Below, piece after piece: positions 1 to 46,846 of a stretch of DNA of 52,561 nucleotides (positions are counted from its first letter, which is position 1; each line of letters begins with the position of its first letter). A program made the position numbers and the translations under genes. The DNA is from a virus (Duplodnaviria; Caudoviricetes), in IMG/VR virus record IMGVR_UViG_3300045738_001973, positions 1 through 52,561 of that record. One strand, written 5' to 3'. The notes below the pieces were generated by a model. That model did no database searches and was not told the DNA's origin. It saw only the letters and a program-made list of their open reading frames with translations.

Positions 1-106
1 CCAAGAAGCATCAACGAAAATGAAAACACATTGGCAATTGCCATTAAGTTGAAACTTCGTTAGAGTAGCCGCCCTTAAAACCAGCTCCACAATGGTTTTA
101 AGTAAA

Positions 107-191
107 GATTTTGGTGAGGTGTCCGAGTGGCTGATTCGGAGGCCTTGCCGGAGAAAACGCCCCTAGGGCGATAACGAGCACGCAGGCGTGT
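107..191 (+). pseudogene. Degenerate 5' copy of tRNA-Ser
   Basis: 107-134 is identical to 235-262 (28 bp). 176-191 GAGCACGC-AG-GCGTGT matches the anticodon stem with a collapsed loop. Confidence 0.6.
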
Positions 192-240
192 GATCCTGAC
201 GCTCGTAAAACCATCTAAAAAGCGCACAAAAAACGATTTT

Positions 241-330
241 GGTGAGGTGTCCGAGTGGCTGAAGGAGCACGCCTGGAAAGCGTGTAACGGGTTAAACTGT
301 TCGAGGGTTCGAATCCCTCCCTCACCGCCA
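241..330 (+). tRNA. tRNA-Ser (anticodon GGA)
   Basis: GGTGAGG/CCTCACC acceptor stem, CACGC-CTGGAAA-GCGTG anticodon arm, long variable arm, GGTTCGAATCC T-loop, encoded CCA. Confidence 0.97.
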
Positions 331-333
331 TTT
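304..333 (+). repeat. Prophage att core (tRNA side)
   Basis: AGGGTTCGAATCCCTCCCTCACCGCCATTT, identical to 41350-41379. Confidence 0.95.
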
Positions 334-407
334 AAACGATTGATAGTAAAGGGATTTATTTATAGCGGTATCGGTTTGGGTCTGTTTTGGGACTAAATCG
401 GGGACTG
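333..407. promoter_or_regulatory. IHF site and integrase arm-type sites next to att
   Basis: TAAACGATTGATA (333-345) fits YAANNNNTTGATW. TGGGTCTG/TGGGACTA/GGGGACTG lie at 377, 388 and 400, and the same motif recurs at 41261-41292. Confidence 0.7.
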
Positions 408-1571
408 TTAAAGGCCTAAGAGCTTGTTGGCTAGGTCTGCTTTGCTGATTCTTTCGTCTTCTCTTATATATTTTGAATACTTCCTGCGCAGCATTGCTTC
501 GGAGGTGTGCCCCATTTGGTCCATGATCCACGACAAATCTAATCCGGCTGTTAATGCTTGCGAGGCGAATGTGTGTCGGCAATTCACTGGGCCGCGAAAC
601 CTTACCTCTGCTTTTGCCAAATGACGTACCCAGAACCCCTGCCTATATAGCTGAATGTCGGTATACGGGCTGCCCGTTCTGGTGTTGATGAATACCGGCC
701 TAAATTGCTCTTTTCGCGTGGTGCGGTTGTCGCGCTGCAGCACGTCTATTGTTATGGGAGCCAAGTGGCCGGTAATTTGATATTGGCTGCGCAGGGCTTC
801 AAGTGCTGGCTTTAGCAAGTCGATTTTGCGTTTAGAGCGCTTGGTTTTGGTGGCTTTGTATTGCCCGGCCACTATGGCGCGTTGCAGTAATGCGTGAGCG
901 TTGTCTAGGTCTACATCATCCCAGCCCAGCGCCATAGATTCAGAAGGCCTTGGGCCGCTCCACATCGAAAACGCCGCAAAGTTAATTTCGCCCTGTCGGC
1001 TGGTTTTGGTTTTTAGAATGGCGTCGATCTCGGCGCGGGTGAACGGGTCTGGGTCTTCGTCGTCTGGCAGCGAAACCTTAATGCCCTCTACCGGGTTAAA
1101 CGCCGTTTTATTGCGCTGGCGGTAAAGGGTAAATACCTGGTTCATTAACGACACAATCTCTTTAATCGATTTGTTGGACAAGTGCTTCAAATCGTTAGCG
1201 ATCCAGTCTTCTACGTGAATAGAGTCTATTTTGTCGGCTTGGCTGTTGCCCCAGCGCGGCCGAATATGGCCATTTACCCAACGGCGGTAATTTAAAATGG
1301 TACTGGGCGCCACCTGTCTGGCTTTAATCTGCAGCCACGTATCTAGCCATACCGCAACCGTATTGCCTTTAAGCTTGGCGCTATTGGGAAAACGACGGGA
1401 ATAGTCGAAAGTACCGGCCTTAATCTCGTGCTTTATTGTGGCTACCAAACCCTCGGCATAGCGCTTATTCTCGGCCGTTGGGTCAATACCCAGCGATTCG
1501 CGGCACTTTTCGCCATTGAAGTAAAAATACACCCGCAGCGTACCGCCGTGGACTTCCCAACCCTTCGCCAT
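408..1571 (-). CDS. int: Tyrosine integrase with N-terminal arm-binding domain
   Basis: GPRPSE (catalytic R), NCRHTFAS, MGH and the C-terminal Tyr; adjacent to att. Confidence 0.95.
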   Translation of the reverse strand: MAKGWEVHGGTLRVYFYFNGEKCRESLGIDPTAENKRYAEGLVATIKHEIKAGTFDYSRRFPNSAKLKGNTVAVWLDTWLQIKARQVAPSTILNYRRWVNGHIRPRWGNSQADKIDSIHVEDWIANDLKHLSNKSIKEIVSLMNQVFTLYRQRNKTAFNPVEGIKVSLPDDEDPDPFTRAEIDAILKTKTSRQGEINFAAFSMWSGPRPSESMALGWDDVDLDNAHALLQRAIVAGQYKATKTKRSKRKIDLLKPALEALRSQYQITGHLAPITIDVLQRDNRTTRKEQFRPVFINTRTGSPYTDIQLYRQGFWVRHLAKAEVRFRGPVNCRHTFASQALTAGLDLSWIMDQMGHTSEAMLRRKYSKYIREDERISKADLANKLLGL

Positions 1572-1663
1572 TAATATCGCCCGTTAATCAAACCGAGTGT
1601 CCAAGGTGATACACCTGCCCTACCCGGTCAAGAAATGCCAATCACAGAACAGGGAGTTCGCCC

Positions 1664-2017
1664 ATGCGCCGCGCCATATTGTTATTTATATCTACCGTGA
1701 TAATTGCTTGCTCTGGCTCCTACGATGACCAGCTCGACGTTATAAACTACGCCTACGCAGAGCACGTACCCAACGCCAAAGGTGCTTGGTGCACCCACAA
1801 AACCATTAATAACCGCGAATACATTGGCTGCCCCTATCAAGTGTCAAAATACAAAAAAACTGCACTATGGATACTCCAAGGCAGCACGTATTACGCAGTA
1901 AACGGAACGGCCCGAGGCGACCGCGAAACAATTGGCACCTACACCGACTTTAAAGATATGCCCTTACCGCTGCCGGCCGATATCGACATACCGGCGGCGA
2001 TAAAAGCGTTTAATTGA
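1664..2017 (+). CDS. Putative lipoprotein moron
   Basis: Short signal peptide ending IIA-C; RBS GGGAG; transcribed opposite to its neighbours. Confidence 0.7.
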   Translation: MRRAILLFISTVIIACSGSYDDQLDVINYAYAEHVPNAKGAWCTHKTINNREYIGCPYQVSKYKKTALWILQGSTYYAVNGTARGDRETIGTYTDFKDMPLPLPADIDIPAAIKAFN

Positions 2018-2062
2018 TAACACTTGCATTGCGCGGGACCTAGCGGCCCGCGAATAGCGGCG

Positions 2063-2509
2063 TTAAATTTTGCGCCCGCGAGTGCCCCGAGCTTCGTTGA
2101 TAGCCATCTTGCGCAGTAGCTGGGCTTCGATGTCGATCCCCTGGGTTACGGTCAGGTCGAGTACTCGCAAGATAATGTCTGCCAGTTCTTCTCCCAGCTT
2201 GTCAGTGGGGTGGTCGCCTCGGCATTCGTTCACGGCTTCGCCCACTTCGCTAGCAATTAATGCAAGGGCTTCCAGCACGGTTTTGTTGTGCCAGCCCATG
2301 CGCTCCACCCAGTCATGTTGAGCATGGGCAATGCCAGAAATTGTCTGTGGCGGGGTGTCGCTGCTGACCTTGCTGGCACCTCTAAGGGCACCATCAAAGT
2401 TGTGCATCACTTCTGGAAAATCGTCATCTACTGGCGCGGTTTGGCGCAGAGCCATGCCTGTTCTGTAAACTTCTCTAAGTGCTTCAAGTTCGCTCATTTG
2501 AGCCTCCAA
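2063..2509 (-). CDS. MazG-like nucleotide pyrophosphohydrolase domain protein
   Basis: EVGEAVNE ... EELADI acidic motifs. Confidence 0.8.
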   Translation of the reverse strand: MEAQMSELEALREVYRTGMALRQTAPVDDDFPEVMHNFDGALRGASKVSSDTPPQTISGIAHAQHDWVERMGWHNKTVLEALALIASEVGEAVNECRGDHPTDKLGEELADIILRVLDLTVTQGIDIEAQLLRKMAINEARGTRGRKI

Positions 2510-2553
2510 AATTTAACAGTTCACGGCAGCGGATAAACCGCTGCATATTTGGG

Positions 2554-2889
2554 TTAAACGTCATACGATCGTAATTTCACCGACTGCCCCGATTGCATTT
2601 TTTTATGACAACCAGGGCAGGTGTAGTTTGATCCAATGGAACCATCACTGTGTATAAAATCTGCCGGATACGGTGCCTGCCACCACCCCGCCGCTAGCCG
2701 CCATAAAGGCGGCTCTCCATCTTCATCGGGGAGCACGGCTAGTGACTTTTTCCCGCAGCATTCGCAAATAGCTCTCACTTTCCCGTTGCTGGTTTTCGCG
2801 TAATTTATATATTCGCTGGGCACAACAATAGATCCGATGCTGGGCTTAAACTCACACAAATACTGCGTTTCAAATTCTTTTGGGGTCAT
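2554..2889 (-). CDS. Hypothetical Zn-finger phage protein
   Basis: CECC ... CPGC; overlaps the upstream ORF. Confidence 0.6.
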   Translation of the reverse strand: MTPKEFETQYLCEFKPSIGSIVVPSEYINYAKTSNGKVRAICECCGKKSLAVLPDEDGEPPLWRLAAGWWQAPYPADFIHSDGSIGSNYTCPGCHKKMQSGQSVKLRSYDV

Positions 2890-3140
2890 GACAGCAACTC
2901 CCGCTGGTAATGTTCAAGCAACTGTTCAGCGCTATTCATATAGCAATCATTGTTTGACTCTATACCTAGCGAGTAAAGAAATTGGCGCTCCCACGAACCG
3001 GGACGCCTTGCGCCGTCGATAATGCTGCTTACAAGGTATTGAACTAATCGTTGTGAATCGGGGTAACCGCTAAATTCAGCGAGCTTGTCTAGCACCTGCT
3101 GATTTACTTCGCTTACCTTTATTTCTAATGTATCTGGCAT
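2886..3140 (-). CDS. Hypothetical phage protein
   Basis: RBS AAGGAG; lies in the early operon. Confidence 0.6.
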   Translation of the reverse strand: MPDTLEIKVSEVNQQVLDKLAEFSGYPDSQRLVQYLVSSIIDGARRPGSWERQFLYSLGIESNNDCYMNSAEQLLEHYQRELLS

Positions 3141-3159
3141 GGCTGTATCTCCTTAAGCC

Positions 3160-3238
3160 TTAAATTTCTGAAAATTGACGTTAATTTTGTTAAACATCGC
3201 CGCCGCTGCTTTGTTGTGGTCCAGTTCAGCGCGGCTTT
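3160..3238 (-). repeat. Diverged 79-bp copy of 3719-3797 (gene 3'-end remnant)
   Basis: Translates KSRAELDHNKAAAAMFNKINVNFQKFKA* versus QSRAELDHKPEAAAMFNKININFQKFKGQL. Confidence 0.8.
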
Positions 3239-3709
3239 TTACTTCTTGGTTCGCAATATTGCTGCTAGCCGGTCGGCGGCTTGGTCTGTATCGGGCTGGT
3301 CGCTTCCGTTACAAATCACGCCGTAACCACATATAAGGCAGCCAAAAAGCTCTTGTTTTCCTACATTAAGGTGCCAAGGCCCAAGCGGCAGGCTGCACCG
3401 TGGACACTCACGTCCATCGAAAGCAAACCATCCAAACTCTTTCTTCTTTAACTCAGGATCTAAATCAGTAAACATCCCCGCCCTAGTACTTACGGCGACA
3501 TCTATCCGCACATTCTTTGCCCACGAGGTGCCATTAATCGCCATACTGGTAATAAAATAGCGGTTCTTTTTCTTGTTAACGATAATTTCTTCTCGGTCGG
3601 TTCCGGGGTTCAAAACCTGCTTTACGAGATATTTAACCGGCTTATCTTCGTATTCGCAGTAAACGGTATAGCCGACTTTAATTTGTCCGGCTGCAGTTAA
3701 ATTCTTCAT
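3239..3709 (-). CDS. Hypothetical protein with C-terminal CxxC..CxxC
   Basis: 156-aa ORF coupled to the upstream gene. Confidence 0.6.
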   Translation of the reverse strand: MKNLTAAGQIKVGYTVYCEYEDKPVKYLVKQVLNPGTDREEIIVNKKKNRYFITSMAINGTSWAKNVRIDVAVSTRAGMFTDLDPELKKKEFGWFAFDGRECPRCSLPLGPWHLNVGKQELFGCLICGYGVICNGSDQPDTDQAADRLAAILRTKK

Positions 3710-3963
3710 AATTGCCCCTTAAATTTCTGAAAATTAATATTGATCTTGTTAAACATCGCCGCCGCTTCGGGTTTGTGGTCCAGTTCAGCGCGGCTTTGTA
3801 CTTTGCAGGCATCCAAAAAGAAGTCGCGGGCGTCTTCTTCAGTATGGGTGCCGTCGGGTATGTCTATTGGGTATTTGGCGTTGCGCATGCGGTCTAGCCA
3901 AAGCCGAAACTTTGGGTTTTGGCAGAGCATGGCAGCGCGGCGCGAAAGCGCCCCGCCCTTCAT
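3706..3963 (-). CDS. Hypothetical phage protein
   Basis: AAMLC..PKF..W ... SRAELDH; start/stop overlaps with both neighbours. Confidence 0.7.
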   Translation of the reverse strand: MKGGALSRRAAMLCQNPKFRLWLDRMRNAKYPIDIPDGTHTEEDARDFFLDACKVQSRAELDHKPEAAAMFNKININFQKFKGQL

Positions 3964-4055
3964 GGCTTGCGACCTTGTTTAGCAATGCGGTGCCGATAGA
4001 TTAATACCAATAAAATCAGTAATACCTCGACAATAAGTAGCCACCAGCCATTCAT
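3960..4055 (-). CDS. 31-aa single-pass membrane peptide (not in ORF track)
   Basis: MNGWWLLIVEVLLILLVLIYRHRIAKQGRKP*; ATGA overlaps with both neighbours. Confidence 0.65.
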   Translation of the reverse strand: MNGWWLLIVEVLLILLVLIYRHRIAKQGRKP

Positions 4056-5524
4056 GCTGCACTCGCCTTGCGCAGCGCCTGCGCCATATTTACCCCCACT
4101 AAAGCAGCGGCAACCGGTGGGCAAACGCTATTCCCACATTTCGCTATTTGCTGAGTTTTAGTTACCGGTTTGCCACTCGCGTCGCGGTTAAATATGTAAT
4201 TAACCGGAAAGCCTTGGGCCGCGAATAGCTCGTGGGGTTGGAGCATACGCATACCAATATCAACGATCTGATATTGCTCACCGCGAACGGTAACCAGCCC
4301 AAAGCGATCGCGGGTTGAAATGGTATGGAGTGGATCGTCAAGGCTCATACCGTCTCGATCATTGCCGTAATACTTCAAAAGGAAGGCTCTCACCTCGCCG
4401 ACATGGTTTCCGCCAGAGGTAAGCGTAGGTATCGGGTCGGTAACGGCTTGGCCAAACTGGGTGTTGCGCAGCTTGACTAGGTGGCTAGTTACCAAGCTGT
4501 GGTGGTCTTGCTGGGTAATGGTGCCAATCGCCTGCTCTACCCCGTGGCCGGTAACGCCGCCGTAGTGCTTAGCCAAAAATGCCGACACCAAACCGATTGG
4601 GGCAGAACCACCGGGTCTTTGTACGTAGCTGGAAGCGGTTACGGTATGTAGTGGGCTTGCTATATCGTGGCCAATAGAACCACTACGAAATTTGGTAACG
4701 TGCGGCGATATCGCCAATGGATCTGCGCCGTTAACAATAAAGGGCTTAGGGTTATCGATGACAAAACGCTGCAAACCCTTAGCAATCCTTCTAAGGGTGT
4801 TCTCTGCCAAGGGCTTTTTACGGCCGAAAATACTTGGGCATGGCAATGTCCAATCGATAATGTCGGCGGCGGTACGGTACTTTTTTAAACCTGGGCCATG
4901 AGTTGGTTTTGGCCACAGAATGGGCTGGCCATCACACCGCGCCACCATAAAAAGGCGCTTTCTTATGGTTGGGGCTCCATAGTCGCAGGCCCGCAATGTT
5001 TTAAATTCCACCTTGTAGCCTTGCCGCCCCAGAGCATTTTTAAAGCTTTGAAACGTTTGCCCTTTGCGTTTAGGGCAGGGTCTTAGGTCGCCATTTTCAT
5101 CAGATATCAGAGGCCCCCACGTTGTGAATTCCTCTACATTTTCCAGCATGATCACACGGGGCTTTACCGTGGCCGCCCAGCGCAACACAACCCACGCCAG
5201 CCCTCGTACTCGAGGCGAAACCGGTGCGCCGCCTTTGGCTTTTGAGAAATGGCGACAATCCGGACTAAACCATGCCAGACCAACCGGCTGCCCTTGGCAG
5301 GCCTCGCGGGGGTCAACCTCCCACACGCTTTCGCAATAATGCTTAGTGCAAGGATGGTTGACCGTGTGCATGCTAATGGCTTGGGGGTCGTGGTTAATCG
5401 CGATATCTACTGGCCGCCCTAGCGCCATTTCAATCCCGGTAGACGCCCCGCCGCCACCGGCAAAGCTATCAATTAGTAGCTCGCCCATATTTAAACGGAG
5501 CTGTGGCACGGTTCGGTAATTCAT
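4052..5524 (-). CDS. DNA cytosine-C5 methyltransferase (orphan)
   Basis: DSFAGGGG (motif I), SPDC (IV), ENV (VI), RKR (VIII), GNSV (X). Confidence 0.93.
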   Translation of the reverse strand: MNYRTVPQLRLNMGELLIDSFAGGGGASTGIEMALGRPVDIAINHDPQAISMHTVNHPCTKHYCESVWEVDPREACQGQPVGLAWFSPDCRHFSKAKGGAPVSPRVRGLAWVVLRWAATVKPRVIMLENVEEFTTWGPLISDENGDLRPCPKRKGQTFQSFKNALGRQGYKVEFKTLRACDYGAPTIRKRLFMVARCDGQPILWPKPTHGPGLKKYRTAADIIDWTLPCPSIFGRKKPLAENTLRRIAKGLQRFVIDNPKPFIVNGADPLAISPHVTKFRSGSIGHDIASPLHTVTASSYVQRPGGSAPIGLVSAFLAKHYGGVTGHGVEQAIGTITQQDHHSLVTSHLVKLRNTQFGQAVTDPIPTLTSGGNHVGEVRAFLLKYYGNDRDGMSLDDPLHTISTRDRFGLVTVRGEQYQIVDIGMRMLQPHELFAAQGFPVNYIFNRDASGKPVTKTQQIAKCGNSVCPPVAAALVGVNMAQALRKASAA

Positions 5525-13130: not shown

Positions 13131-13886
13131 ATGATTAGCGAAGAGATCACACGGATCGAAGAGCGGCTTAAGGATTTGGGTTTAACGAAAACGGAATTTG
13201 CAATAGCGCTAGGCGCGCCAGAAGACAATGCCAGCTCCTACTACAACAACTGGCGCCATAGAGACTTACCAAAATCACGACTAAGTGCCGCGGCAGATTT
13301 TTTAAATACCACCATTGAATGGATTACTAGGGGCGAGCGCAAACTAAGTGTGGCTACCGACAGCTGCCCACGGCAAGAAATTGCTATTGAATACACCCGA
13401 CGAATACACGCCGACGGCGGTATTACTGCCTGCGTCACCGTCAATGACCGAAACTTTTTTATTGTTGGCATGCACGAAGACATGGTGCAAGTCACCCTGT
13501 CTATTGTCACCGTGGCGGGCGGCATAAAAGCGGCGGCTATTAAAGAAATGATCGAGCTCGGCGTACTGTCTAGGCGCATCAAGTTAAGCGCTAACGAATA
13601 TGATCGGTTTATCCGGGGCATGGTGTCGATCGATGATTTGTTTAAGGGCGGCCGTGAAAGTTACTGGGGCCGTATAGAAATAATCACCCACGACAGTATT
13701 TACACGCCAGAAGTGAGGGACAGAGGCGGTAATTACGTAGAGCTGCCCAGCCAAATAGGGGTGATATTAGAGCTGTTTAAAACCCAGCAAATCGATTTAG
13801 ACGACTTAATAACCTTAGAACAAATTGCCTGTCGGCTGGCGGCTAAAGCGGATTACATTGCGGCCAAAAATTTAATTTCAAAGTAA
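13131..13886 (+). CDS. CI-like repressor (N-terminal XRE HTH, unrecognised C-terminal domain)
   Basis: GLTKTEFAIALG..NNW..AADFLNTTIEWITRG. Confidence 0.75.
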   Translation: MISEEITRIEERLKDLGLTKTEFAIALGAPEDNASSYYNNWRHRDLPKSRLSAAADFLNTTIEWITRGERKLSVATDSCPRQEIAIEYTRRIHADGGITACVTVNDRNFFIVGMHEDMVQVTLSIVTVAGGIKAAAIKEMIELGVLSRRIKLSANEYDRFIRGMVSIDDLFKGGRESYWGRIEIITHDSIYTPEVRDRGGNYVELPSQIGVILELFKTQQIDLDDLITLEQIACRLAAKADYIAAKNLISK

Positions 13887-13894
13887 ATTTTCGC

Positions 13895-13982
13895 TTGCAA
13901 TAACACTCAATGAGTGTATTATAGGAACTGTAGACAGCAATACCGCTGCTACGAAATCACGAATAGATAGGTGATAAAATGA
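13895..13982 (+). promoter_or_regulatory. Promoter/operator/leader copy 1
   Basis: TTGCAA-16-TATTAT with the palindrome ACACTCA-A-TGAGTGT (13903-13917) in the spacer; RBS AGGTG. Confidence 0.8.
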
Positions 13983-14260
13983 CTACTTACACAATCCCAC
14001 AAAAAATGTCTGGCACTGGCTCAATCCACGACATCGCCAGCGACATGCAAGACCGCGAAATCAAGTTTGGCAAAGGTTGCAAATACGCAGTGGTGCTGTC
14101 CAGCTACTACGGCGGCAAAGGCTACACCACCCACCAAACTGCCGAAGCGGCTGCCCGCGCAAGCCGTAAAAATAAAGACTATTCCCACGCCATTATCGAC
14201 ACAGATGGCAACCGGTACACCACTGACTATGACAATCAGCTGGTAAAGATTACCGAATAA
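13979..14260 (+). CDS. Small protein, anti-CRISPR candidate (93 aa)
   Basis: First gene after the operator-bearing promoter and directly upstream of the Aca-like HTH. The function is inferred from context only. Confidence 0.6.
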   Translation: MTTYTIPQKMSGTGSIHDIASDMQDREIKFGKGCKYAVVLSSYYGGKGYTTHQTAEAAARASRKNKDYSHAIIDTDGNRYTTDYDNQLVKITE

Positions 14261-14290
14261 ACCACCCCGCCGCCCACTAGGGCGGCAACC
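14260..14290 (+). repeat. 31-bp hairpin repeat copy 1
   Basis: GCCGCCC-ACTA-GGGCGGC; 29/31 identical to 14813-14843. Confidence 0.85.
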
Positions 14291-14302
14291 ACCGAGACCA
14301 CT

Positions 14303-14521
14303 ATGATCACCCAACCCACACCCGAACAAATCAAAGCCGCGCGCACTGCTGCTGGCGACTCGCAGGCCCAGGCGGCTGAGCGTATTTATGCGCCCAGCTA
14401 CCGCACTTGGCAAAATTGGGAGAAAGACGGCGCAGGGTCGCGCGCCATGCCGCTGGCCGCGTGGGAATTGTATTTAATCAAGACAGATCAAACCGATAAA
14501 ATTATTTTTCAAAAAGATTAA
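14303..14521 (+). CDS. Small HTH protein, Aca-like repressor
   Basis: TPEQIKAAR..SQAQAAERI..RTWQNWE..MP..WEL, a pattern resembling Aca3-type HTHs. Confidence 0.75.
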   Translation: MITQPTPEQIKAARTAAGDSQAQAAERIYAPSYRTWQNWEKDGAGSRAMPLAAWELYLIKTDQTDKIIFQKD

Positions 14522-14529
14522 GAAAGGGC

Positions 14530-14618
14530 TTGTTTTTACACTCAATGAGTGTATTATTGGAACTGTAGACAGCAATACCGCTGCTACGAAAATCACGAAT
14601 AGATAGGTGATAAAATGA
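14530..14618 (+). promoter_or_regulatory. Promoter/operator/leader copy 2
   Basis: 14538-14618 equals 13903-13982 except for one substitution and one indel. Confidence 0.8.
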
Positions 14619-14776
14619 AAATTGAAAAAATGTACATGAACATCGAGACCGGATCAGTTGATACCCGTGACGGCTGGGACTACGAGAACGAATCTGGCGA
14701 GACTGTGAACGCGGTTGATCTTGGCGAAGTTGTCGAGGTTAAAAAGGACGACAAAGGCGAGTGGGTCGAAGCATGA
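14615..14776 (+). CDS. 53-aa acidic protein, anti-CRISPR candidate (not in ORF track)
   Basis: MKIEKMYMNIETGSVDTRDGWDYENESGETVNAVDLGEVVEVKKDDKGEWVEA*; same RBS and ATG context as 13979. Confidence 0.7.
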   Translation: MKIEKMYMNIETGSVDTRDGWDYENESGETVNAVDLGEVVEVKKDDKGEWVEA

Positions 14777-14812
14777 CCCCAAGCGATAAATTCGAAGGCG
14801 TTTCACACCACT

Positions 14813-14843
14813 AACCACCTCGCCGCCCACCAGGGCGGCAACC
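14813..14843 (+). repeat. 31-bp hairpin repeat copy 2
   Basis: GCCGCCC-ACCA-GGGCGGC. Confidence 0.85.
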
Positions 14844-14865
14844 CTCCTCACCCAAGGCCACCAAC

Positions 14866-15813
14866 ATGCAGCCCACCGAGCACCTACACGCCCTAGGCCG
14901 TCGCTACCCCAGCGCATGGCAGCAGATTAACGATCTGCGCCGGGATAGGGGCAAAGACATACCAGACTGGCCAGCGTGGTGTTTTTTGCCGATGGGCGGG
15001 TTTTACGCGATTGTCAGTGCGCAGCATCAAACACAGCAGCTTGGTTTGCAGCAGATCCCCGACGTGTCGGCGCTGGCCGCACTGGGTACGTGGCGTTATA
15101 GCCAAGGTATTTACCGCTTTGATTCGCAAGCGCAGCAGGCGCTGGCGAGCACATTACTGCACGGCGAGATGCCGACGGACGTTTTGCTACGCCTGCCGGA
15201 GTGGTGTTTGTACATCGAGACGCCGGATCAGCAGTGGTTTGGCCAGCCGCTGCACGGCTTTTGGTGTCATTTAGAGAGCGACGCTAACACGCAGCGCCGT
15301 GAGTTACGCTTTTTGCTTAACCATGGCGACAGCCTCAGCCCGCAAATTTTGCACTTGGGCGGCTGGACAGTGACCGAGGCAGTAGATAGATACATAAGCG
15401 AGGCAAAACGCCAAGGCCGCGCCGCCGGCATAACGCTACCCGCCGACGCCAGCGAGGCCGTGGAGCACATCAGCGCGCAAATACAGCCGCTACTCGCGAT
15501 GATTTTGTACTTGTGCAGCGACGAGCCAGAGATTACAGACCGCGAGCACCCCGAGCAAAGGCCAAGCCGCCCACGCCCAACACGCACAAAAAAAGGTTGG
15601 AAGCTCTTTGCGCCAAAAGCCCCAAAAATTTGGCAAGTAGGCGAGCAACTCGGCGAGGCGCTGCGCAAAGACCACGGCGCAGACCCCACCGGACGCAGGG
15701 TAAAACCACACCTACGCCGCGCCCACTGGCACGGCTTTTGGAGCGGCCCCCGCGACGGCGAGCGGCGGTTTGGGTATAAATGGCTGCCGCCGACGGTGGT
15801 AGCCGCAGACTAG
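14866..15813 (+). CDS. acrVA2: AcrVA2-family anti-CRISPR protein
   Basis: WRYSQGIYRFD, LPEWCLYI, GFW, LYLCSDEPEI and PHLRRAHWHGFW match the AcrVA2 motifs in order; similar length. Confidence 0.85.
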   Translation: MQPTEHLHALGRRYPSAWQQINDLRRDRGKDIPDWPAWCFLPMGGFYAIVSAQHQTQQLGLQQIPDVSALAALGTWRYSQGIYRFDSQAQQALASTLLHGEMPTDVLLRLPEWCLYIETPDQQWFGQPLHGFWCHLESDANTQRRELRFLLNHGDSLSPQILHLGGWTVTEAVDRYISEAKRQGRAAGITLPADASEAVEHISAQIQPLLAMILYLCSDEPEITDREHPEQRPSRPRPTRTKKGWKLFAPKAPKIWQVGEQLGEALRKDHGADPTGRRVKPHLRRAHWHGFWSGPRDGERRFGYKWLPPTVVAAD

Positions 15814-15824
15814 ATTTTTAATTA

Positions 15825-16805
15825 TCACTTCTTGGTCACCAGCTCCACACTGGTGACCAAGCCCGCACTGCCCGCCGTATGATTTAAGTCATCAATCACC
15901 CAGTTGTGGGCGTTTATCTCTGCTTTAAATCCCGTTAATTCCACCGGTTGGCCATTGACCAGCCCCGGCATACCAGGCGCCACGCTTAGGCTCATGGTGG
16001 CGTCGCCGCGTTGTATTCTTGCCCATTCTGCTTTTGCTGCCTCGGTGGCTTGCTGCGCGTCTGGTAGTGGGTCGCGGATCTGTTTGGTGTAGCCTTCTGC
16101 GCCAGCGGTCACTTTTACGGTTTGGGCGGTGTCGGTGTTGTACCAGCTGGCGGTGGCGCCGGTGAATCGGCTATTGCGGTCGGCGGTTTTGTAGCGATGG
16201 TCTGTGCATTGGTTTTTGTTAATGCTGGCCTGTGGCAAGGCGGCGCCGCTGGCGGTGGCGCCCTGCCCCTTTGGGTAAAATAATAAATAGCCGTTTTTGC
16301 TGGTGGCCACGGCGTCGAATTGCTGGCCAATGCGGTTTAAAAAGGCGCTGTCTGATTCGGCGGTTTGGTTAAGTTGCTGCAGCGCCACGCTGGCAAGGTC
16401 TGGCGCCACTTTGGGTTTAAGTGCGTAACGCTCGGCAATGCTGGCCACTAAATTGCCAAGGGTTGTGCCCGGCTCCCAATGGGTAGAGCGCAGGGTTTTG
16501 AATTCGTCTCTAAAATTGGCGCTGCGAGCGGTAATAATCAGTTTGTCTGGGGCGCCAGAATGCTCTACATCGTCTACGGTAAAGGTGCCTTTGTTGTGCA
16601 GCCCCTGCCCCATAAAACCTAGCTGCAGGGTAAGTTTAGCGCCCTTGGGTGGAATATTTAGGCTGCCGTCGCTGTCGTCTAGCTCTAACACCAACTGGTC
16701 TGCGGTGGTGCCGCTGGCGTCGTGATAACTCACGCTTAAAATTCGCTTGTTAACCTCGCTCGCAAGGGCCACGCCGTTGGCGGTGATTTCATAAACGGGG
16801 GTCAT
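15825..16805 (-). CDS. P2 gpD-like late control/baseplate hub
   Basis: D.L.LELDDSDG..P.KGA.L..LG, QTAESD; position after gpU. Confidence 0.9.
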   Translation of the reverse strand: MTPVYEITANGVALASEVNKRILSVSYHDASGTTADQLVLELDDSDGSLNIPPKGAKLTLQLGFMGQGLHNKGTFTVDDVEHSGAPDKLIITARSANFRDEFKTLRSTHWEPGTTLGNLVASIAERYALKPKVAPDLASVALQQLNQTAESDSAFLNRIGQQFDAVATSKNGYLLFYPKGQGATASGAALPQASINKNQCTDHRYKTADRNSRFTGATASWYNTDTAQTVKVTAGAEGYTKQIRDPLPDAQQATEAAKAEWARIQRGDATMSLSVAPGMPGLVNGQPVELTGFKAEINAHNWVIDDLNHTAGSAGLVTSVELVTKK

Positions 16806-41349: not shown

Positions 41350-41379
41350 AGGGTTCGAATCCCTCCCTCACCGCCATTT
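41350..41379 (+). repeat. Prophage att core (distal copy of tRNA 3' end)
   Basis: Identical to 304-333. Confidence 0.95.
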
Positions 41380-42951
41380 TGATATGAATATGGGCACTTG
41401 CAAAGAGGTGCCCATATTTCTATCTACCCTCGATATAATTGCTGCAAGGGGCAGAAGCCCTCCGCTAAACTTCAGCTTTGTCGGATAGACGACAATCTCT
41501 TTCACAATCGCGACTAATAGCGCTTTAGTAGCCTCATTGTCATCTCCTAGTAGTATATTCCTTGCCGCTTGCGCAAATAGCGAGATATGGCTTTGACCAA
41601 ATTTTTTAATTGGCAACTGCATGCGCTCCTTTAAACTTCTCGCCTCCATCTGAAGCCCATCTTGACTTCGCTTTAACCGACCAATTGTGTCTTTTGCCGT
41701 ACTGTCTAGCTCCAGCTCACCTTTTGCAATGTGCATGATTAGCTTTTCGTATTGATCCGTCACTTTCGAGGATTTAGCCTGAACAGCTAATAGACGCTGC
41801 CGATCCGCCCTAAACACTTCTTTGTGCTTCACTTTTAACGTCTGTACATACTCAGACAGGGCCTCCTCCGGCATTACTAGCTCCGCAATCAATTCTTTAA
41901 CCTTATTTTCTAGCGGTACTTTTGGAAGATTGGGGCACGTACATACGTTAATATTTTCCTTTATTCTTCGAACACATCTGTAATACCAATAATGTCCGCT
42001 TTTTCCGGAAGATAAGACAAGGTTTTTCCTACAGGAAGAACATTTAAGTAAGCCGGTCAAAATAGAGGGGCTACGGATTCCTTTTTCTTCTGTATTTTTT
42101 TGGGGGGCTCGCTGTTTAAGCTCCGCCTGAACTCTATTGAATACTTCCACATCCAAAATTTGAGGATTTTTATAATATATGGGCTTATAGTCCGCTCGTT
42201 TAATACGGCGATCAGCTGCGTATTCTCGTTGAGCGATGTAAATTGGGTCGGTGAGCACTCTATGAACCTTCATTGTCGTCCAATTCGAAACGTTTGCAGG
42301 GATCCCTGAAGTATTAAGGTAAGTCGCAATTTTTTTAACACCGTAGGGCCGCCCACAATTACCTTCAATTGCTAATCGGTAGATATCCCTTACAATTTCG
42401 GCTTGCTCACTGTTAACTACCAAGATTTTTTTGCTTTTATCCGAGTCTGGCGCAGGAACGGATTTGTACCCATAGGGGACTGCACCACCGACAAAGAAAC
42501 CTTTCTCTACCGCCTCAGCTTTACGATCTGAAACGACTTTACTATTTTGTCGGCTTTGATGCTCATTAACTGTCCCTAATAAACTTTTAACCAAATGCGC
42601 TAATGCGGGATCTGTGGGAAATGATTCCGTCACTGAAAAAAATTCAAAACCTAGGTCAGCAATTAAGCTGTCGGAAACTAACCGCTTCTGCTCATTCCGC
42701 GCGAAGCGACTAAGGGAATAGACGACTACTCCCTGGTACTCAACATCACTAGACTGAATATCACTAAGCATTTGTTCCAGCGCTGGTCGTTTCCCCTTGA
42801 AGGCTGAATATCCACCCTCAACATAATGCTTGACCACTACATGATCGTTTTGCGAAGCCCATTTTGTAATAGCCAATTTCTGGCCATCTAGGGAGTCGCT
42901 CTCTGTTGCCTGACGAGAAGTAGAAACCCTAATATAAGCTGCTAATTTCAT
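41368..42951 (-). CDS. Large serine recombinase (integrase)
   Basis: YIRVST catalytic Ser, SLSRFAR, recombinase domain, Zn-ribbon C..C/C..C and coiled coil. Confidence 0.93.
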   Translation of the reverse strand: MKLAAYIRVSTSRQATESDSLDGQKLAITKWASQNDHVVVKHYVEGGYSAFKGKRPALEQMLSDIQSSDVEYQGVVVYSLSRFARNEQKRLVSDSLIADLGFEFFSVTESFPTDPALAHLVKSLLGTVNEHQSRQNSKVVSDRKAEAVEKGFFVGGAVPYGYKSVPAPDSDKSKKILVVNSEQAEIVRDIYRLAIEGNCGRPYGVKKIATYLNTSGIPANVSNWTTMKVHRVLTDPIYIAQREYAADRRIKRADYKPIYYKNPQILDVEVFNRVQAELKQRAPQKNTEEKGIRSPSILTGLLKCSSCRKNLVLSSGKSGHYWYYRCVRRIKENINVCTCPNLPKVPLENKVKELIAELVMPEEALSEYVQTLKVKHKEVFRADRQRLLAVQAKSSKVTDQYEKLIMHIAKGELELDSTAKDTIGRLKRSQDGLQMEARSLKERMQLPIKKFGQSHISLFAQAARNILLGDDNEATKALLVAIVKEIVVYPTKLKFSGGLLPLAAIISRVDRNMGTSLQVPIFISKWR

Positions 42952-42952
42952 C

Positions 42953-43153
42953 TCACTGCTCCTTTTTATCTTGTTTTAAGGCCAGTAAATCTTGATTTGT
43001 TCTTGCCTCAAATTGGAGACTATTAAACTCATGAACGATTGCATTGAGATTAAGATCAAGCAATTTACAGATAGTCTCGTGGGTGAAAGCCAGATGAATC
43101 TCTGCACTAACATCTTGAGCGACCCTTAAATGCACCTTTTTGTTCATGGTCAC
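42953..43153 (-). CDS. Small protein abutting the recombinase
   Basis: RBS AGGAG; the stop is 1 nt from the recombinase ATG. Confidence 0.55.
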   Translation of the reverse strand: MTMNKKVHLRVAQDVSAEIHLAFTHETICKLLDLNLNAIVHEFNSLQFEARTNQDLLALKQDKKEQ

Positions 43154-43477
43154 TCTCCTGATATGAATCTGCTAACAGATGATCAAAAAGTATCCAATTA
43201 CAGAAGGTTAATCAAGGGGGGATATTAATAAATTCTTTTTAAATTCAACAAGTTAGGATCTAAAAAATAAAAACATTGCATTAACTTTCCTAAAGATCAT
43301 TAGTAATCAGAAGGTTAAACCAAGTTAATCTATTAACTGATATTACGAATGGATATAGATTTATAATTAAAATAAAGGTTGTCGGCTGTGTATATAGAAA
43401 ACTTGTATAAGAATCTATTGCTACCGCCTATATTCAAAGCCCTTTAGTGCCGATTTAAAACATTGTTGTTGCCTCGG

Positions 43478-43774
43478 TTACGGCCACCAAGGGTCTCCTA
43501 CCCATTTTTGTACGACTTTCAAATACCTGCCCTCAAGACAGGAAACCGCATCAAATAGATCAAAAGTAATTCGATTTTCGTGTAGCCATACACCCACTAA
43601 AAAACATAGCATAATTCCCTCTGTCTTCGAACAAGTGTAAAGGTAGGCATCTACTCTATCGAGCAAACACTCCCGACTAGAAAGATCCCAGAATGGCAGA
43701 AATTCAGGCAGGTCGTCTTCCAGTAACACAGCAAATCTAGCCTGACCCAAGCTTAAATTAATATTTAGCTCCAC
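43478..43774 (-). CDS. Hypothetical protein
   Basis: RBS GAGG; ends W..DPWWP. Confidence 0.6.
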   Translation of the reverse strand: MELNINLSLGQARFAVLLEDDLPEFLPFWDLSSRECLLDRVDAYLYTCSKTEGIMLCFLVGVWLHENRITFDLFDAVSCLEGRYLKVVQKWVGDPWWP

Positions 43775-43833
43775 AATGCACCTCTTTCAGGTCACTAAGA
43801 TACTGCCCAGCAGGTCGGAATTTAAAGACTTCG

Positions 43834-44238
43834 TTATCTCGTCTCGGGAAATAAAAACGTATTCATGTCTAGATCCTCTGGAGTTAATTTATAACCATCA
43901 GAAGTAAGCATGATCGTCTTACCAACTTCAATGTCATAGGACGCTGGGCGTTCACTAGAGAATCGACCTGGGCCTTGGAGTTTGTAGCAAGTATTTTGGG
44001 TCTCAACGGTTAATGTATCGATATCAAGAGATATTATCAGCGAAGACCGCATTGCAGCTCCCGGCTTCCATCGCCCTAATCTATCGTCAACAACGGAGCC
44101 AGTAAAAAATCGGGGACTAAAGCTAGAGTCTTTTTCGAGCTGTTGAACGATGAAATCTACTGGTAGGTGATCACGTACATCGTGTACACACCAGGACTCA
44201 ATTATCCCCCCAAAAGGCTTTGTGCTCTCCTGCGCCAT
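43834..44238 (-). CDS. Hypothetical protein
   Basis: D.LGRW.PG..MRSS..ETQNT.Y.L.GPG. Confidence 0.6.
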   Translation of the reverse strand: MAQESTKPFGGIIESWCVHDVRDHLPVDFIVQQLEKDSSFSPRFFTGSVVDDRLGRWKPGAAMRSSLIISLDIDTLTVETQNTCYKLQGPGRFSSERPASYDIEVGKTIMLTSDGYKLTPEDLDMNTFLFPETR

Positions 44239-44380
44239 TTTTTTGACTCACGAAAATTAGTTACGAATGTTATATGCTAAAAAACCGAAAATGTCAAAAA
44301 AATGAATAAAAACAATAATTTACGGAATAATAACTCACAGCATTTACTCGTACCAAGGTAAGCGCTCAATTAACCACGCC

Positions 44381-45913: not shown

Positions 45914-45937
45914 GACGCGTATTATACCAAAAGACCG

Positions 45938-46593: not shown

Positions 46594-46777
46594 GAATAGC
46601 TCCTCAGTTAAAAATTGAAGAGTAAAGCCGTAGTGGGAAGATTATTAGATGTGGTTTATTGAGCGCTTACGTACCAAGGACATATTGCCAAGATTACTCG
46701 TTCCTTAAATTAGATCGGTAAAACAGAAAGATACCAAGGGGGGGAGCCTTCAAATCGGCAATCCTCCCGTGAAAGCA

Positions 46778-46846
46778 AAATCCATGAGATCTTAATCGCT
46801 AAATCCATGAGGTCTGAATCGCTAAATCCATAAAGACTGAAGCGAG
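46778..46846 (+). repeat. Three tandem 23-bp imperfect repeats
   Basis: AAATCCATGAGATCTTAATCGCT / AAATCCATGAGGTCTGAATCGCT / AAATCCATAAAGACTGAAGCGAG. Confidence 0.85.

What the first reader, a model, noticed from the sequence alone, without database searches (positions are those of the whole stretch)
13895..15813. Prophage anti-CRISPR/anti-defence locus: unknown gene - aca - unknown gene - acrVA2
Seen: between the repressor and gpD lie four same-strand genes. The last carries AcrVA2 motifs, the second is a 72-aa HTH, and a perfect palindrome (ACACTCA-A-TGAGTGT) sits between -35 and -10 of both promoters. Established: acr genes cluster with aca HTH repressors that bind inverted repeats in the acr promoter. 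Inference: one Aca controls two promoters, and the two unknown lead genes are anti-defence genes.
Basis: partly seen in the sequence, partly recalled or inferred. Interest (0 to 1): 0.88.

Follow-up and report, generated by a model that had tools for sequence, protein, structure and literature searches.

The report
Aca10-controlled two-operon prophage anti-defence locus
A marine P2-like prophage carries a small accessory cassette in which one Aca10-type repressor probably shuts off two near-identical promoters that drive two unknown small proteins and a relative of the anti-CRISPR AcrVA2; it is a recognisable kind of phage counter-defence locus that offers new candidate inhibitors.

Summary
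Window 13895-15813 holds two tandem modules. Each has a promoter with the palindrome ACACTCA-A-TGAGTGT in its spacer, a structured leader, a small lead gene (93 aa; 53 aa), a GC hairpin and a second gene.

The 72-aa HTH belongs to the Aca10 family (PDB 7XI5, E 3e-9). Its promoter and operator resemble the EMSA-proven Aca10 site. The 315-aa protein belongs to the AcrVA2/FinQ family (PDB 7CI1, E 3.6e-23), and all five functionally important residues are kept.

A contig from another metagenome joins the repressor gene to gpD without these 2 kb, so the locus is an accessory cassette.

Eight related loci share the leader and carry an AcrVA2-like gene. Their 18 leader-preceded ORFs fall into 15 unrelated, mostly acidic families of unknown function.

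Several points are not shown:
- that the HTH binds or represses;
- that either lead protein is an anti-defence protein;
- that the AcrVA2 relative targets Cas12a. This is unlikely: Cas12a was in 1 of 401 sampled Gammaproteobacteria and in 0 of 2 genomes with close homologs.

A 2026 paper already predicts that Aca proteins control neighbouring operons and reports 5'UTR RNA motifs in aca10 operons. The scan noted an AcrVA2/FinQ relative in another genome. I class this as a new member of a known kind, with useful leads.

The parts
13131..13886 (+). CI-like repressor gene (251 aa, N-terminal HTH, no peptidase domain found); upstream neighbour. No terminator-like site lies between it and the locus on the + strand.
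   Evidence: (HTH_26 E 1.4e-3; phrog_8, phrog_4)
13811..15823 (.). Extent of the accessory cassette. A contig of another marine metagenome joins 13810 to 15824 with 128 other letters in place of these 2013 bases.
   Evidence: table 5 and record 6
13895..13922 (+). Promoter A: TTGCAA-16 nt-TATTAT.
   Evidence: Same -35 hexamer and spacer length as the Aca10 promoter in PMC9410881.
13903..13917 (.). Operator A: ACACTCA-A-TGAGTGT, in the promoter spacer; its last base is the first base of the -10.
13929..13978 (+). Leader A: hairpin 13929-13953, then hairpin 13956-13975 (AUCAC-N10-GUGAU) whose 3' arm is part of the Shine-Dalgarno AGGUGAU.
   Evidence: (-15 kcal/mol, z -3.96)
13979..14260 (+). Lead gene A, 93 aa. 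Conserved family of unknown function; candidate anti-defence protein.
   Evidence: (407 clusters); no hit
14269..14286 (+). Intercistronic hairpin A: GCCGCCC-ACUA-GGGCGGC, no U-tract.
   Evidence: -16.5 kcal/mol, z -4.5
14303..14521 (+). aca10-like gene, 72-aa HTH repressor; weak Shine-Dalgarno.
   Evidence: 7XI5 E 3.1e-9; phrog_7950
14530..14557 (+). Promoter B: TTGTTT-16 nt-TATTAT; a copy of promoter A with a weaker -35.
   Evidence: not flagged by the scan
14538..14552 (.). Operator B, identical to operator A.
14564..14614 (+). Leader B: hairpin 14564-14588 and Shine-Dalgarno hairpin 14592-14611.
   Evidence: -15 kcal/mol, z -4.61
14615..14776 (+). Lead gene B, 53 aa, acidic (pI 4.1). Conserved family of unknown function; candidate anti-defence protein.
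   Evidence: 56 clusters; pLDDT 91.5
14822..14839 (+). Intercistronic hairpin B: GCCGCCC-ACCA-GGGCGGC.
14866..15813 (+). AcrVA2/FinQ-family gene, 315 aa. W76, D86, H282, R284 and H287 align with AcrVA2 W79, D89, H286, R288 and H291.
   Evidence: (phrog_6160 E 1.7e-63)
15825..16805 (-). gpD-like tail gene, convergent; downstream boundary of the locus.
   Evidence: phrog_52 E 5.9e-118

Best explanation
This is an accessory counter-defence or MGE-conflict cassette of a P2-like temperate phage, built as two tandem expression modules under one Aca10-family autorepressor.

**Proposed mechanism (inferred)**
1. On entry or induction, two sigma-70 promoters fire.
2. Each transcript starts with a roughly 50-nt structured leader. 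Its second hairpin pairs part of a strong Shine-Dalgarno.
3. A small lead protein is made first (93 aa in module A, 53 aa in module B).
4. A 7-bp GC hairpin follows each lead gene. The downstream gene has a weak ribosome site, so the repressor (module A) and the AcrVA2/FinQ-like protein (module B) are made at lower levels.
5. The 72-aa HTH accumulates, dimerises and binds the palindrome in the spacer of both promoters. It shuts both off by excluding RNA polymerase, as shown for Aca10, Aca1 and Aca2.
6. In a lysogen, read-through from the adjacent repressor gene could keep enough Aca present to hold both promoters off.
7. By homology, the 315-aa protein lowers the mRNA of a target whose nascent N-terminus it recognises. 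The target is unknown and probably not Cas12a.
8. The two lead proteins are the variable cargo and the best candidates for inhibitors of host defences.

**Shown:** sequence anatomy, family memberships, conservation of the architecture, accessory status.
**Inferred:** binding, repression, attenuation, and every protein function.
For: **Aca10 membership**
- HTH72 matches solved Aca10 (7XI5) at E 3.1e-9. The next solved Aca, Aca3, scores only E 0.056. 7XI5 is Aca10 of P. citronellolis.
- HTH72 R47 aligns with Aca10 R44, the residue critical for DNA binding.

**Operator**
- Aca10's promoter is TTGCAA-N16-TATTCT, with the EMSA-proven site ATACGCTCA-T-TGAGCGTAT.
- Here the promoter is TTGCAA-N16-TATTAT with ACACTCA-A-TGAGTGTAT in the same place.
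- In L102 a homolog 66% identical to HTH72 hits Aca10 at E 3.7e-15. Its operator ATACGCTCA-A-TGAGCGTAT differs from the Aca10 minimal site only at the central base.
- 7 of 11 distinct loci with an HTH72 homolog have a palindrome in a promoter-like context. The sequences vary with the protein: L004 TATATATCCA-T-TGGATATATA, L008 ATACAGACA-T-TGTCTGTAT, L024 three TACAC-N7-GTGTA sites, L086 ACGCA-A-TGCGT.

**Two operons per locus**
- L004, L102 and L114 each have two operator/leader copies and one aca. L114 has the same order as the window.
- Most Aca families are predicted to regulate neighbouring operons (PMC13551039 section 22).

**AcrVA2 family**
- 7CI1 at E 3.6e-23 over residues 67-312. All five residues important in AcrVA2 are conserved.

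**Accessory status**
- A contig of another run joins 13810 to 15824 without the locus.

**Cargo slot**
- 18 leader-preceded ORFs in 9 loci fall into 15 unrelated families. 14 of the 18 have pI below 5.2.
- 10 of them were tested and none matched a family of known function.

**Leader and hairpins**
- Fold z-scores are -3.96 and -4.61.
- The Shine-Dalgarno helix is 99% paired over 20 sequences, and 2 of 5 pairs show compensatory changes, including U-G.
- The hairpins after the lead genes fold at -16.5 and -17.2 kcal/mol.
Against: - There is no experiment, and no RNA run holds this DNA.
- Promoter B has a poor -35 and was not called by the scan. The scan as a whole was not above its shuffles.
- 4 of 11 HTH72-homolog loci showed no palindrome: L025, L026, L035 and L036. 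L036 has only about 100 nt of upstream sequence.
- The window's two hairpins lack a U-tract, so termination there is uncertain.
- The two copies of the regulatory region could be similar through recent duplication rather than selection.
- The covariation alignment was fitted to the model, and 13 of its 20 rows were found with a pattern that fixes the helix.
- Most homologs of the lead proteins do not sit beside an Aca10 or AcrVA2 relative. For the 53-aa family this is 0 of 37 loci. For the 93-aa family it is 5 of 30 distinct loci: HTH72 homolog in L035, L036, L086; AcrVA2 homolog in L092/L094 and L098.
- The neighbours of those homologs are ordinary early-region genes.
- Purified Aca10 has so far not bound its predicted RNA motif (PMC13551039 section 21).
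Confidence: 0.7

Rival explanations
1. The cassette serves the prophage in competition with other mobile elements (fertility inhibition or superinfection exclusion) rather than counter-defence against the host. On this reading the AcrVA2/FinQ-like protein knocks down a gene of an incoming plasmid or phage. The cassette would be expressed from the lysogen by read-through from the repressor gene.
For: - FinQ, a family member, inhibits F-plasmid transfer, and the family is mostly found without Cas12a.
- 509 of 559 plasmid records with a homolog are conjugative.
- No + strand terminator-like site lies between the repressor gene and promoter A.
- P2-like prophage hotspots usually carry defence systems. 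Known anti-defence genes were detected in only 28 P2-like prophages in a large survey (PMC13586616 passages).
Against: - None of the four proteins hits a PADLOC defence model at E up to 0.1.
- Tight autorepression by an Aca-type regulator, a strong early-type promoter and hypervariable small acidic cargo are the hallmarks of acr-aca loci.
Confidence: 0.18
2. Module A is a HigBA-like toxin-antitoxin pair: the 93-aa protein is the toxin and the 72-aa HTH is the antitoxin and autorepressor. Module B would be a second addiction-type pair.
For: - Aca10 resembles HigA2 antitoxins, whose toxin gene comes first (PMC9410906 passages).
- The gene order small protein then HTH fits.
- One MqsA-antitoxin-like ORF and five HTH ORFs are among 52 ORFs flanking 93-aa homologs.
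Against: - The 93-aa protein has no Pfam hit at E up to 1 (so none to any toxin family), no PHROG hit at E up to 0.01, and no NCBIfam or PADLOC hit at E up to 0.1.
- It has no Foldseek match in the PDB at E 1e-3 or better.
- Only 3 of its 30 other distinct loci have an HTH72 homolog nearby.
- In L003/L005 it precedes the AcrVA2-like gene, not an HTH.
- The lead position is filled by 15 unrelated families.
Confidence: 0.05
3. The lead proteins are antirepressors or other lysis-lysogeny switch factors for the adjacent CI-like repressor. That repressor shows no autocleavage domain. The HTH would set the induction threshold.
For: - The 251-aa repressor has only an HTH hit and no peptidase domain.
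- The locus lies directly downstream of it.
- From my own recollection, not from any call: phage 186 keeps its antirepressor Tum in a comparable position.
Against: - A related phage lacks the whole locus while keeping the repressor and gpD.
- The lead slot is hypervariable.
- The palindrome is an Aca10-type site. By my recollection of the gammaproteobacterial LexA-box consensus, it is also not a LexA box.
Confidence: 0.05

Closest known systems
Aca10 and the acrIC7-acrIC6-aca10 operon of Pseudomonas citronellolis (PDB 7XI5; PMC9410881, PMC7913775)
   Same: - A small single-HTH protein: 72 aa here against 65 aa, E 3.1e-9.
- The DNA-binding arginine is conserved.
- A TTGCAA-N16 promoter.
- A palindrome with a 1-bp centre and a CTCA-N-TGAG core in the promoter spacer.
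- Small unknown or Acr genes lie upstream of aca.
   Different: - The operator has 7-bp perfect half-sites (ACACTCA) instead of 10.
- There are two operator-bearing promoters, not one.
- aca is followed by a second module rather than ending the locus.
- The partner genes are a 93-aa and a 53-aa unknown and an AcrVA2 relative, not AcrIC6/IC7.
- The host is a marine P2-like phage.
AcrVA2 of Moraxella bovoculi (PDB 7CI1) and FinQ of E. coli plasmids (bioRxiv 10.1101/2022.11.29.518452)
   Same: - Similar length: 315 aa against 322 aa.
- Collinear match over residues 67-312.
- W, D and the PHxRRxHWH motif are conserved.
- It is carried on a mobile element.
   Different: - The match is remote: no phage-database relative exceeds 30% identity.
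- The first 66 residues are not aligned. The preprint reports that the N-terminal part differs between AcrVA2 and FinQ.
- The host is unknown and no Cas12a link was found.
- The closest annotated relatives are 'hypothetical proteins' on Methylococcales plasmids, 47-57% identical.
Aca-regulated multi-operon anti-defence loci and Aca-associated 5'UTR RNA motifs (Feussner et al. 2026, PMC13551039; sections 21-23 and abstract read)
   Same: - One Aca with binding sites in front of its own and a neighbouring operon.
- A DNA motif in the promoter, a transcription start 10-15 nt downstream, then a structured RNA at the start of the 5'UTR.
- Many regulated genes are of unknown function.
   Different: - The paper's main text never mentions AcrVA2 (0 occurrences).
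- Here the Shine-Dalgarno hairpin leader also occurs in 5 loci that have other operators and no Aca10 homolog (L006, L031, L109, L118, L122). It therefore tracks the AcrVA2-like gene rather than the regulator.
- I could not compare it with the paper's Aca10 RNA motif, which is in Supplementary Fig. S6, because supplements are closed.
Aca2 translational repression through 5'UTR hairpins at the ribosome-binding site (summarised in PMC13551039)
   Same: A conserved hairpin involving the ribosome-binding site of the first gene of an acr-type operon.
   Different: - The hairpin here bears no likeness to the DNA operator.
- It is shared by loci with different regulators.
- No binding protein is known for it.

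Membership tests
Aca10 (anti-CRISPR-associated HTH repressor) | Sequence similarity to the founding, solved Aca10 protein that is better than to other Aca families | tested here: met
   7XI5 E 3.1e-9 over residues 4-62. The only other solved Aca hit is Aca3 at E 0.056. The bridging homolog in L102 scores E 3.7e-15.
Aca10 (anti-CRISPR-associated HTH repressor) | Residues needed for function: R44 (DNA binding) and a small residue at G49 (dimer interface) | tested here: inconclusive
   R47 aligns with R44. A52 aligns with G49, small but not glycine. This rests on alignment only.
Aca10 (anti-CRISPR-associated HTH repressor) | Palindromic operator with a 1-bp centre overlapping the core promoter of its own operon | tested here: met
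   ACACTCA-A-TGAGTGT lies in the spacer of TTGCAA-16-TATTAT. It shares the CTCA-N-TGAG core with the EMSA-proven site.
Aca10 (anti-CRISPR-associated HTH repressor) | Binds that operator as a dimer and represses transcription | not testable with these tools
   Needs EMSA and a reporter assay.
AcrVA2/FinQ family | Full-length sequence similarity to AcrVA2 | tested here: met
   7CI1 E 3.6e-23, residues 67-312 against 71-316. phrog_6160 E 1.7e-63 over residues 13-314. The first 66 residues are not aligned to AcrVA2.
AcrVA2/FinQ family | Conserved residues W79, D89, H286, R288, H291 | tested here: met
   W76, D86, H282, R284 and H287 align with them. The PDB chain numbering is offset by one.
AcrVA2/FinQ family | Inhibits Cas12a by translation-dependent loss of cas12a mRNA | not testable with these tools
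   The host is unknown. Indirect evidence: Cas12a (TIGR04330) was in 0 of 2 genomes with close homologs and in 1 of 401 sampled Gammaproteobacteria.
acr-aca operon (as a kind of locus) | Small genes of mobile-element origin directly upstream of an aca gene, on an accessory stretch, under an Aca-controlled promoter | tested here: met
acr-aca operon (as a kind of locus) | At least one gene with demonstrated anti-CRISPR activity | not testable with these tools
   There is only homology of the 315-aa protein to AcrVA2. The 93-aa and 53-aa proteins match no Pfam, PHROG, NCBIfam or PADLOC family and no solved structure.
Type II toxin-antitoxin (HigBA-like) | Upstream protein with a RelE/HigB-type toxin family or fold | tested here: not met
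   No Pfam hit at E up to 1. 0 Foldseek PDB matches at E 1e-3 or better.
Any described RNA family (Rfam 15) for the leader | Match to a covariance model | tested here: not met
   0 matches at E up to 1 in 13800-14900.

The most novel reading that the evidence does not exclude
The invariant leader (AUCAC-GAAUAGAUAG-GUGAU plus start codon) and the hairpin after the first gene may define a plug-and-play expression cassette. It would travel with AcrVA2/FinQ-like genes whichever repressor controls the promoter.

Two consequences would follow.
- The leader would be a functional RNA element recognised by something other than Aca10. The most interesting candidate is the AcrVA2-like protein itself, which acts on translating mRNAs.
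- The 15 unrelated small, mostly acidic proteins found behind the leader would be new families of defence inhibitors. These include the widespread 93-aa family (407 clusters) and the 53-aa family (56 clusters). The leader could then serve as a search handle for more.
Probability: 0.25. Interest if true: 0.75.

Novelty: new member of a known kind. Interest (0 to 1): 0.48.

Why it matters
- **Test case.** This is a clean natural example of one Aca repressor wired to two operons. That arrangement was predicted at scale in 2026 and shown for only a few Aca families (Aca14, and Aca11/Aca13 as cited there).
- **New link.** It joins the Aca10 family to the AcrVA2/FinQ family, whose targets outside Cas12a are unknown.
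- **Candidates.** It offers two conserved, structurally unmatched small protein families as candidate defence inhibitors.
- **Search handle.** The 19-nt leader core retrieved eight further loci and 16 more cargo ORFs. Regulatory sequence may therefore find counter-defence genes that protein homology cannot.
- **Scarcity.** Known anti-defence genes were detected in only 28 P2-like prophages in a large survey (PMC13586616), so this class may be under-detected there.

Tried and rejected
- **Family scans.** Pfam, PHROGs, NCBIfam and PADLOC gave nothing for the 93-aa protein. For the 53-aa protein they gave only a sub-threshold Peptidase_M23 hit (E 0.022, 15 bits against a cut-off of 28.7), which I treat as chance.
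- **Fold searches.** Foldseek against the PDB gave 0 matches at E 1e-3 or better for either model. BFVD gave only an uncharacterised 280-aa protein for the 93-aa model, at E 6.9e-3.
- **ESM Atlas.** Only unnamed clusters below the 0.9 lead level were returned.
- **DNA search.** blastn of the locus against phage records found no match.
- **CTCA-N-TGAG search.** This pattern was absent from the first 20 related loci, because the operators differ. Palindrome searches later found them.
- **Flanking ORFs.** ORFs beside homologs of the two lead proteins showed no consistent partner.
  - I dropped duplicate contigs before the scans.
  - I also left out the 1148-aa ORF downstream in L098 and the 680-aa ORF upstream in L035.
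  - A4 and A5 are not true alignments. They are containers for 52 and 57 unrelated ORFs, so that one family scan could cover them.
- **Sequencing runs.** No RNA holder was listed, so nothing can be said on expression. Small-share holders were not used to name a habitat.
- **Leader model.** R1 found nothing in the Methylotuvimicrobium plasmid locus or in the two genome loci L124 and L125.
- **Cas12a search.** The family search had no hit in the tool's 14 control genomes. I therefore ran it on 401 Gammaproteobacteria as my own positive control, which gave 1 hit.
- **Not sent.**
  - Complex prediction, because I claim no protein-protein binding.
  - The search of protein representatives.
  - The third homologous-protein search.
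- **Supplements closed.** Supplementary Fig. S6 of PMC13551039 (the Aca10 RNA motif) and Supplementary Tables 2 and 3 of the AcrVA2 preprint could bear on whether the leader and this protein are already catalogued.


Full report
**What is there**

The window is a whole 52.5-kb IMG/VR virus record with no host genome attached. It is a P2-like temperate phage. The evidence is:
- an integrase next to tRNA-Ser;
- a primase;
- a CII-like and an Ogr-like regulator;
- a tape measure and gpU- and gpD-like tail proteins;
- a large terminase.

Four + strand genes of 93, 72, 53 and 315 aa lie between a CI-like HTH gene (13131-13886, +) and the convergent gpD-like gene (15825-16805, -).

The region consists of two tandem modules.
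- **Shared start.** Both modules begin with the same 106-107 bp, split by the repeat finder into 64 nt at 92% identity and 42 nt at 86%. This stretch holds four elements:
  - a promoter (TTGCAA-16-TATTAT at 13895-13922; TTGTTT-16-TATTAT at 14530-14557);
  - the perfect palindrome ACACTCA-A-TGAGTGT in the spacer;
  - a leader of about 50 nt;
  - the start codon of a small lead gene.
- **Shared middle.** After each lead gene comes a repeated 31-nt stretch (94% identity) with a 7-bp GC hairpin. A second gene with a weak ribosome site follows.
- **Palindrome statistics.** It occurs only at these two places in the record. Chance expectation is 0.07, and 0 of 100 shuffles gave two.
- **Promoter scan.** The generic scan called promoter A but not promoter B, and overall it was not above its shuffles. 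The promoters therefore rest on the comparison below, not on the scan.

**The regulator**

- The 72-aa protein matches one solved structure well: 7XI5, E 3.1e-9. The next is Aca3 at E 0.056.
- 7XI5 is Aca10 of Pseudomonas citronellolis.
- The Aca10 paper (passages read) gives that operon's promoter as TTGCAA-N16-TATTCT. It shows by EMSA that Aca10 binds ATACGCTCA-T-TGAGCGTAT inside the promoter, as a dimer, with R44 critical.
- The window has the same -35 hexamer, the same spacer length and a palindrome at the same place. The palindrome has the same 1-bp centre and the same CTCA-N-TGAG core. R47 aligns with R44.
- A bridging case is L102. Its 60-aa homolog is 66% identical to the window's protein and hits Aca10 at E 3.7e-15. 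Its operator, ATACGCTCA-A-TGAGCGTAT, differs from the Aca10 minimal site only in the central base.
- 7 of 11 distinct loci with a homolog have a palindrome in a promoter-like context: the window, L004, L008/L011, L024, L086, L102/L108 and L114. The sequences differ with the protein.
- In L025, L026, L035 and L036 I found none. L036 has only about 100 nt of upstream sequence.
- I conclude that the protein is an Aca10-family member and that the palindrome is its operator. Binding itself is inferred.

**Two promoters, one repressor**

- The duplicated promoter and leader is not peculiar to this phage.
  - L004 has two copies, 117 nt at 88% identity.
  - L003 has two copies, 170 nt at 85%, with a different small regulator.
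  - L102 and L114 each have two copies.
- L114 has the window's layout exactly: [promoter/operator - 112-aa gene - hairpin - aca] followed by [promoter/operator - 102-aa gene - hairpin - AcrVA2-like gene]. L102 and L004 have the two modules in the other order.
- A September 2026 paper (PMC13551039; abstract and sections 21-23 read) predicts such control of neighbouring operons for all Aca families except Aca5 and Aca7. It demonstrates it for Aca14.

**The 315-aa protein**

- It matches AcrVA2 (7CI1) at E 3.6e-23 over residues 67-312, and phrog_6160 at E 1.7e-63.
- The preprint on AcrVA2 (passages read) reports several things.
  - AcrVA2 binds the nascent N-terminus of Cas12a and triggers loss of its mRNA.
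  - W79 and D89, and above all H286, R288 and H291, matter for this.
  - About 1800 homologs occur on mobile elements, 'typically in the absence of Cas12a'.
  - FinQ, a plasmid fertility inhibitor, is a homolog.
- All five residues are conserved here as W76, D86, H282, R284 and H287.
- The first 66 residues did not align. The preprint says AcrVA2 and FinQ diverge near the N-terminus.
- Relatives in phage records are below 30% identity (70 records).
- The closest annotated relatives are hypothetical proteins on Methylococcales plasmids, 47-57% identical. 509 of the 559 plasmid records with a hit are conjugative.
- In a sample of 401 Gammaproteobacteria, 2 genomes had a close homolog and neither had Cas12a. 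Cas12a itself was found in 1 of the 401, which also shows that the search works.
- Family membership therefore holds. 'Anti-Cas12a' is improbable, and the target is unknown.

**The lead genes**

- Both are real, conserved protein families: 407 clusters for the 93-aa protein and 56 for the 53-aa one. All are unnamed or 'hypothetical'.
- The gene caller's 84-aa version of the first is too short. Homologs align from the ATG at 13979.
- AlphaFold models are fair for the 93-aa protein (pLDDT 78.8) and good for the 53-aa protein (91.5, an all-beta mini-domain). Neither has a match among solved structures. The best viral match for the 93-aa fold is an uncharacterised protein.
- Elsewhere the 93-aa family sits next to an HTH72 homolog in 3 distinct loci and next to an AcrVA2 homolog in 2. 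The 53-aa family does so in 0 of 37 loci.
- Flanking ORFs of the 93-aa family include HTH proteins, RadC, two DNA methyltransferases and a SprT-like protein. Those of the 53-aa family are phage early and replication genes.
- This is compatible with accessory early genes. It does not prove anything about function.

**The cassette is accessory and its cargo is swappable**

- A contig in another marine metagenome run joins position 13810 to 15824, with 128 other letters in place of the 2013 bases. A relative thus keeps the repressor gene and gpD but lacks the locus.
- I searched public contigs for the 19-nt leader core and found 27 stretches.
  - 11 are true leaders: promoter, leader, start codon and ORF. 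They come from 8 distinct loci besides the window.
  - 16 are unrelated occurrences, for instance inside coding regions.
- Every one of the 9 leader-bearing loci has an AcrVA2 homolog, 47-57% identical. In L118 only a fragment was matched.
- Only 4 of the 9 have an Aca10 homolog. L006, L109 and L122 have a different operator, TTTTGTTTTGTATATACAAAACAAAA, and L031 and L118 differ again.
- The 18 ORFs preceded by a leader fall into 15 families unrelated at BLASTP E 1e-3. 14 of the 18 have pI below 5.2.
- Ten were scanned and none matched a family of known function.
- Read by eye from the printed flanks, most first ORFs are followed by a GC-rich hairpin. This was not scored with a terminator program.
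  - In L004, L006, L031, L102, L109, L114 and L122 the hairpin has a U-tract, like an intrinsic terminator.
  - In the window it has none.
- The pattern across these loci is:
  - a constant AcrVA2-like gene;
  - an exchangeable regulator and operator;
  - a constant leader;
  - hypervariable small acidic first genes.

**The leader**

- Both window leaders fold into two hairpins (-15 kcal/mol; z -3.96 and -4.61).
- The second hairpin, AUCAC-N10-GUGAU, includes part of the Shine-Dalgarno AGGUGAU.
- The AcrVA2-like genes of these loci are only 55-58% identical at the DNA level, yet the 19-nt core is identical.
  - Caveat: most loci were found with that very pattern.
  - L004 and L006 were found through the protein, and they carry the identical core.
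  - L003 has a diverged form, and L008 has none.
- A covariance model found seven more matches beyond its 13 training sequences, several of them diverged copies in front of second and third genes.
- Over the 20 sequences the helix is 99% paired. 2 of 5 pairs show compensatory changes, including U-G, which favours RNA over DNA pairing. The alignment was fitted to the model, so this is modest support.
- Rfam has no match.
- PMC13551039 reports a covarying 5'UTR motif in aca10 operons, finds no co-evolution with the protein, and has seen no Aca10 binding so far.
- My finding that the leader also serves loci without Aca10 fits that result. It suggests the leader's role does not depend on Aca10.
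- I could not check whether the two motifs are the same, because supplements are closed.

**How it most likely works, and how sure**

- I put 0.7 on an Aca10-autoregulated, two-operon counter-defence or MGE-conflict cassette, as described under Best explanation.
- Within that, operator binding by the HTH is the most secure step.
- Unequal expression caused by the hairpins is plausible.
- The functions of the three other proteins are open.
- The rivals are prophage-serving competition with other elements (0.18), a HigBA-like toxin-antitoxin pair (0.05) and a switch or antirepressor module (0.05).

**Novelty**

- Aca10, the AcrVA2 family and multi-operon control by Aca proteins are all in print.
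- In what I could read, these points are new:
  - the pairing of Aca10-type control with an AcrVA2/FinQ-like gene;
  - the two lead-gene families;
  - the regulator-independent leader with its hairpin-bounded cargo slot.
- I searched for '7XI5', 'AcrVA2', 'Aca10', Aca2 with RNA terms, and P2-like hotspots.
- In those papers I read only the passages and sections named above.
- I cannot exclude that supplements or subscription papers cover these points.
- The scan itself had already noted the cassette architecture on this window (e1-6310143) and an AcrVA2/FinQ relative in another genome (e1-6102651).

Noticed in passing
window 13131-13886: The CI-like repressor (251 aa) has an N-terminal HTH but no recognisable autocleavage (S24) domain, so induction may need an antirepressor. 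Its last ~25 codons differ in the relative seen in run X2, whose contig leaves the window's sequence at 13810.
   Followed up: partly
P0108, P0115, P0119: Three 161-162-aa relatives of the 93-aa protein carry a conserved ~70-aa N-terminal extension. The 93-aa unit therefore also occurs as the C-terminal domain of a larger protein.
   Followed up: no
L024 700-840: The closest viral-contig homolog of the HTH (59%) has three TACAC-N7-GTGTA sites in tandem directly upstream of its own gene, one inside TTGCAA-N17-TATCAA. These sites share the outer CACATA half-site with the window's operator while the inner 7 nt differ.
   Followed up: partly
L006 2735-2760; also L109, L122: These leader-bearing loci use a different 26-nt palindrome (TTTTGTTTTGTATATACAAAACAAAA) in the promoter and have no Aca10 homolog. 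A 63-aa ORF after the AcrVA2-like gene of L006 (4950-5141) may be their regulator.
   Followed up: no
L123 (Methylotuvimicrobium alcaliphilum 20Z plasmid) 1-4496: The closest annotated relative of the 315-aa protein (56.6%) follows a very large strawberry-notch-like NTPase gene on a conjugative plasmid. This is a plasmid context of its own, without the leader.
   Followed up: partly
window 14265-14301 and 14585-14636: Short contigs of an ice-metagenome run (X10) match only the hairpin stretch and only the leader stretch, at 80-85% likeness and with unrelated flanks. These two elements therefore occur in other contexts.
   Followed up: no
window 41368-52271: The low-GC right end (35-43% GC against about 52%) carries large - strand ORFs of 527, 752 and 630 aa. 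I did not examine them.
   Followed up: no
window 15831-15861: A perfect 12-bp inverted repeat (CTTGGTCACCAG/CTGGTGACCAAG) lies inside the last codons of the gpD-like gene, just after the stop of the 315-aa gene. It could act as a stop for the converging transcripts, although it has no U-tract.
   Followed up: no
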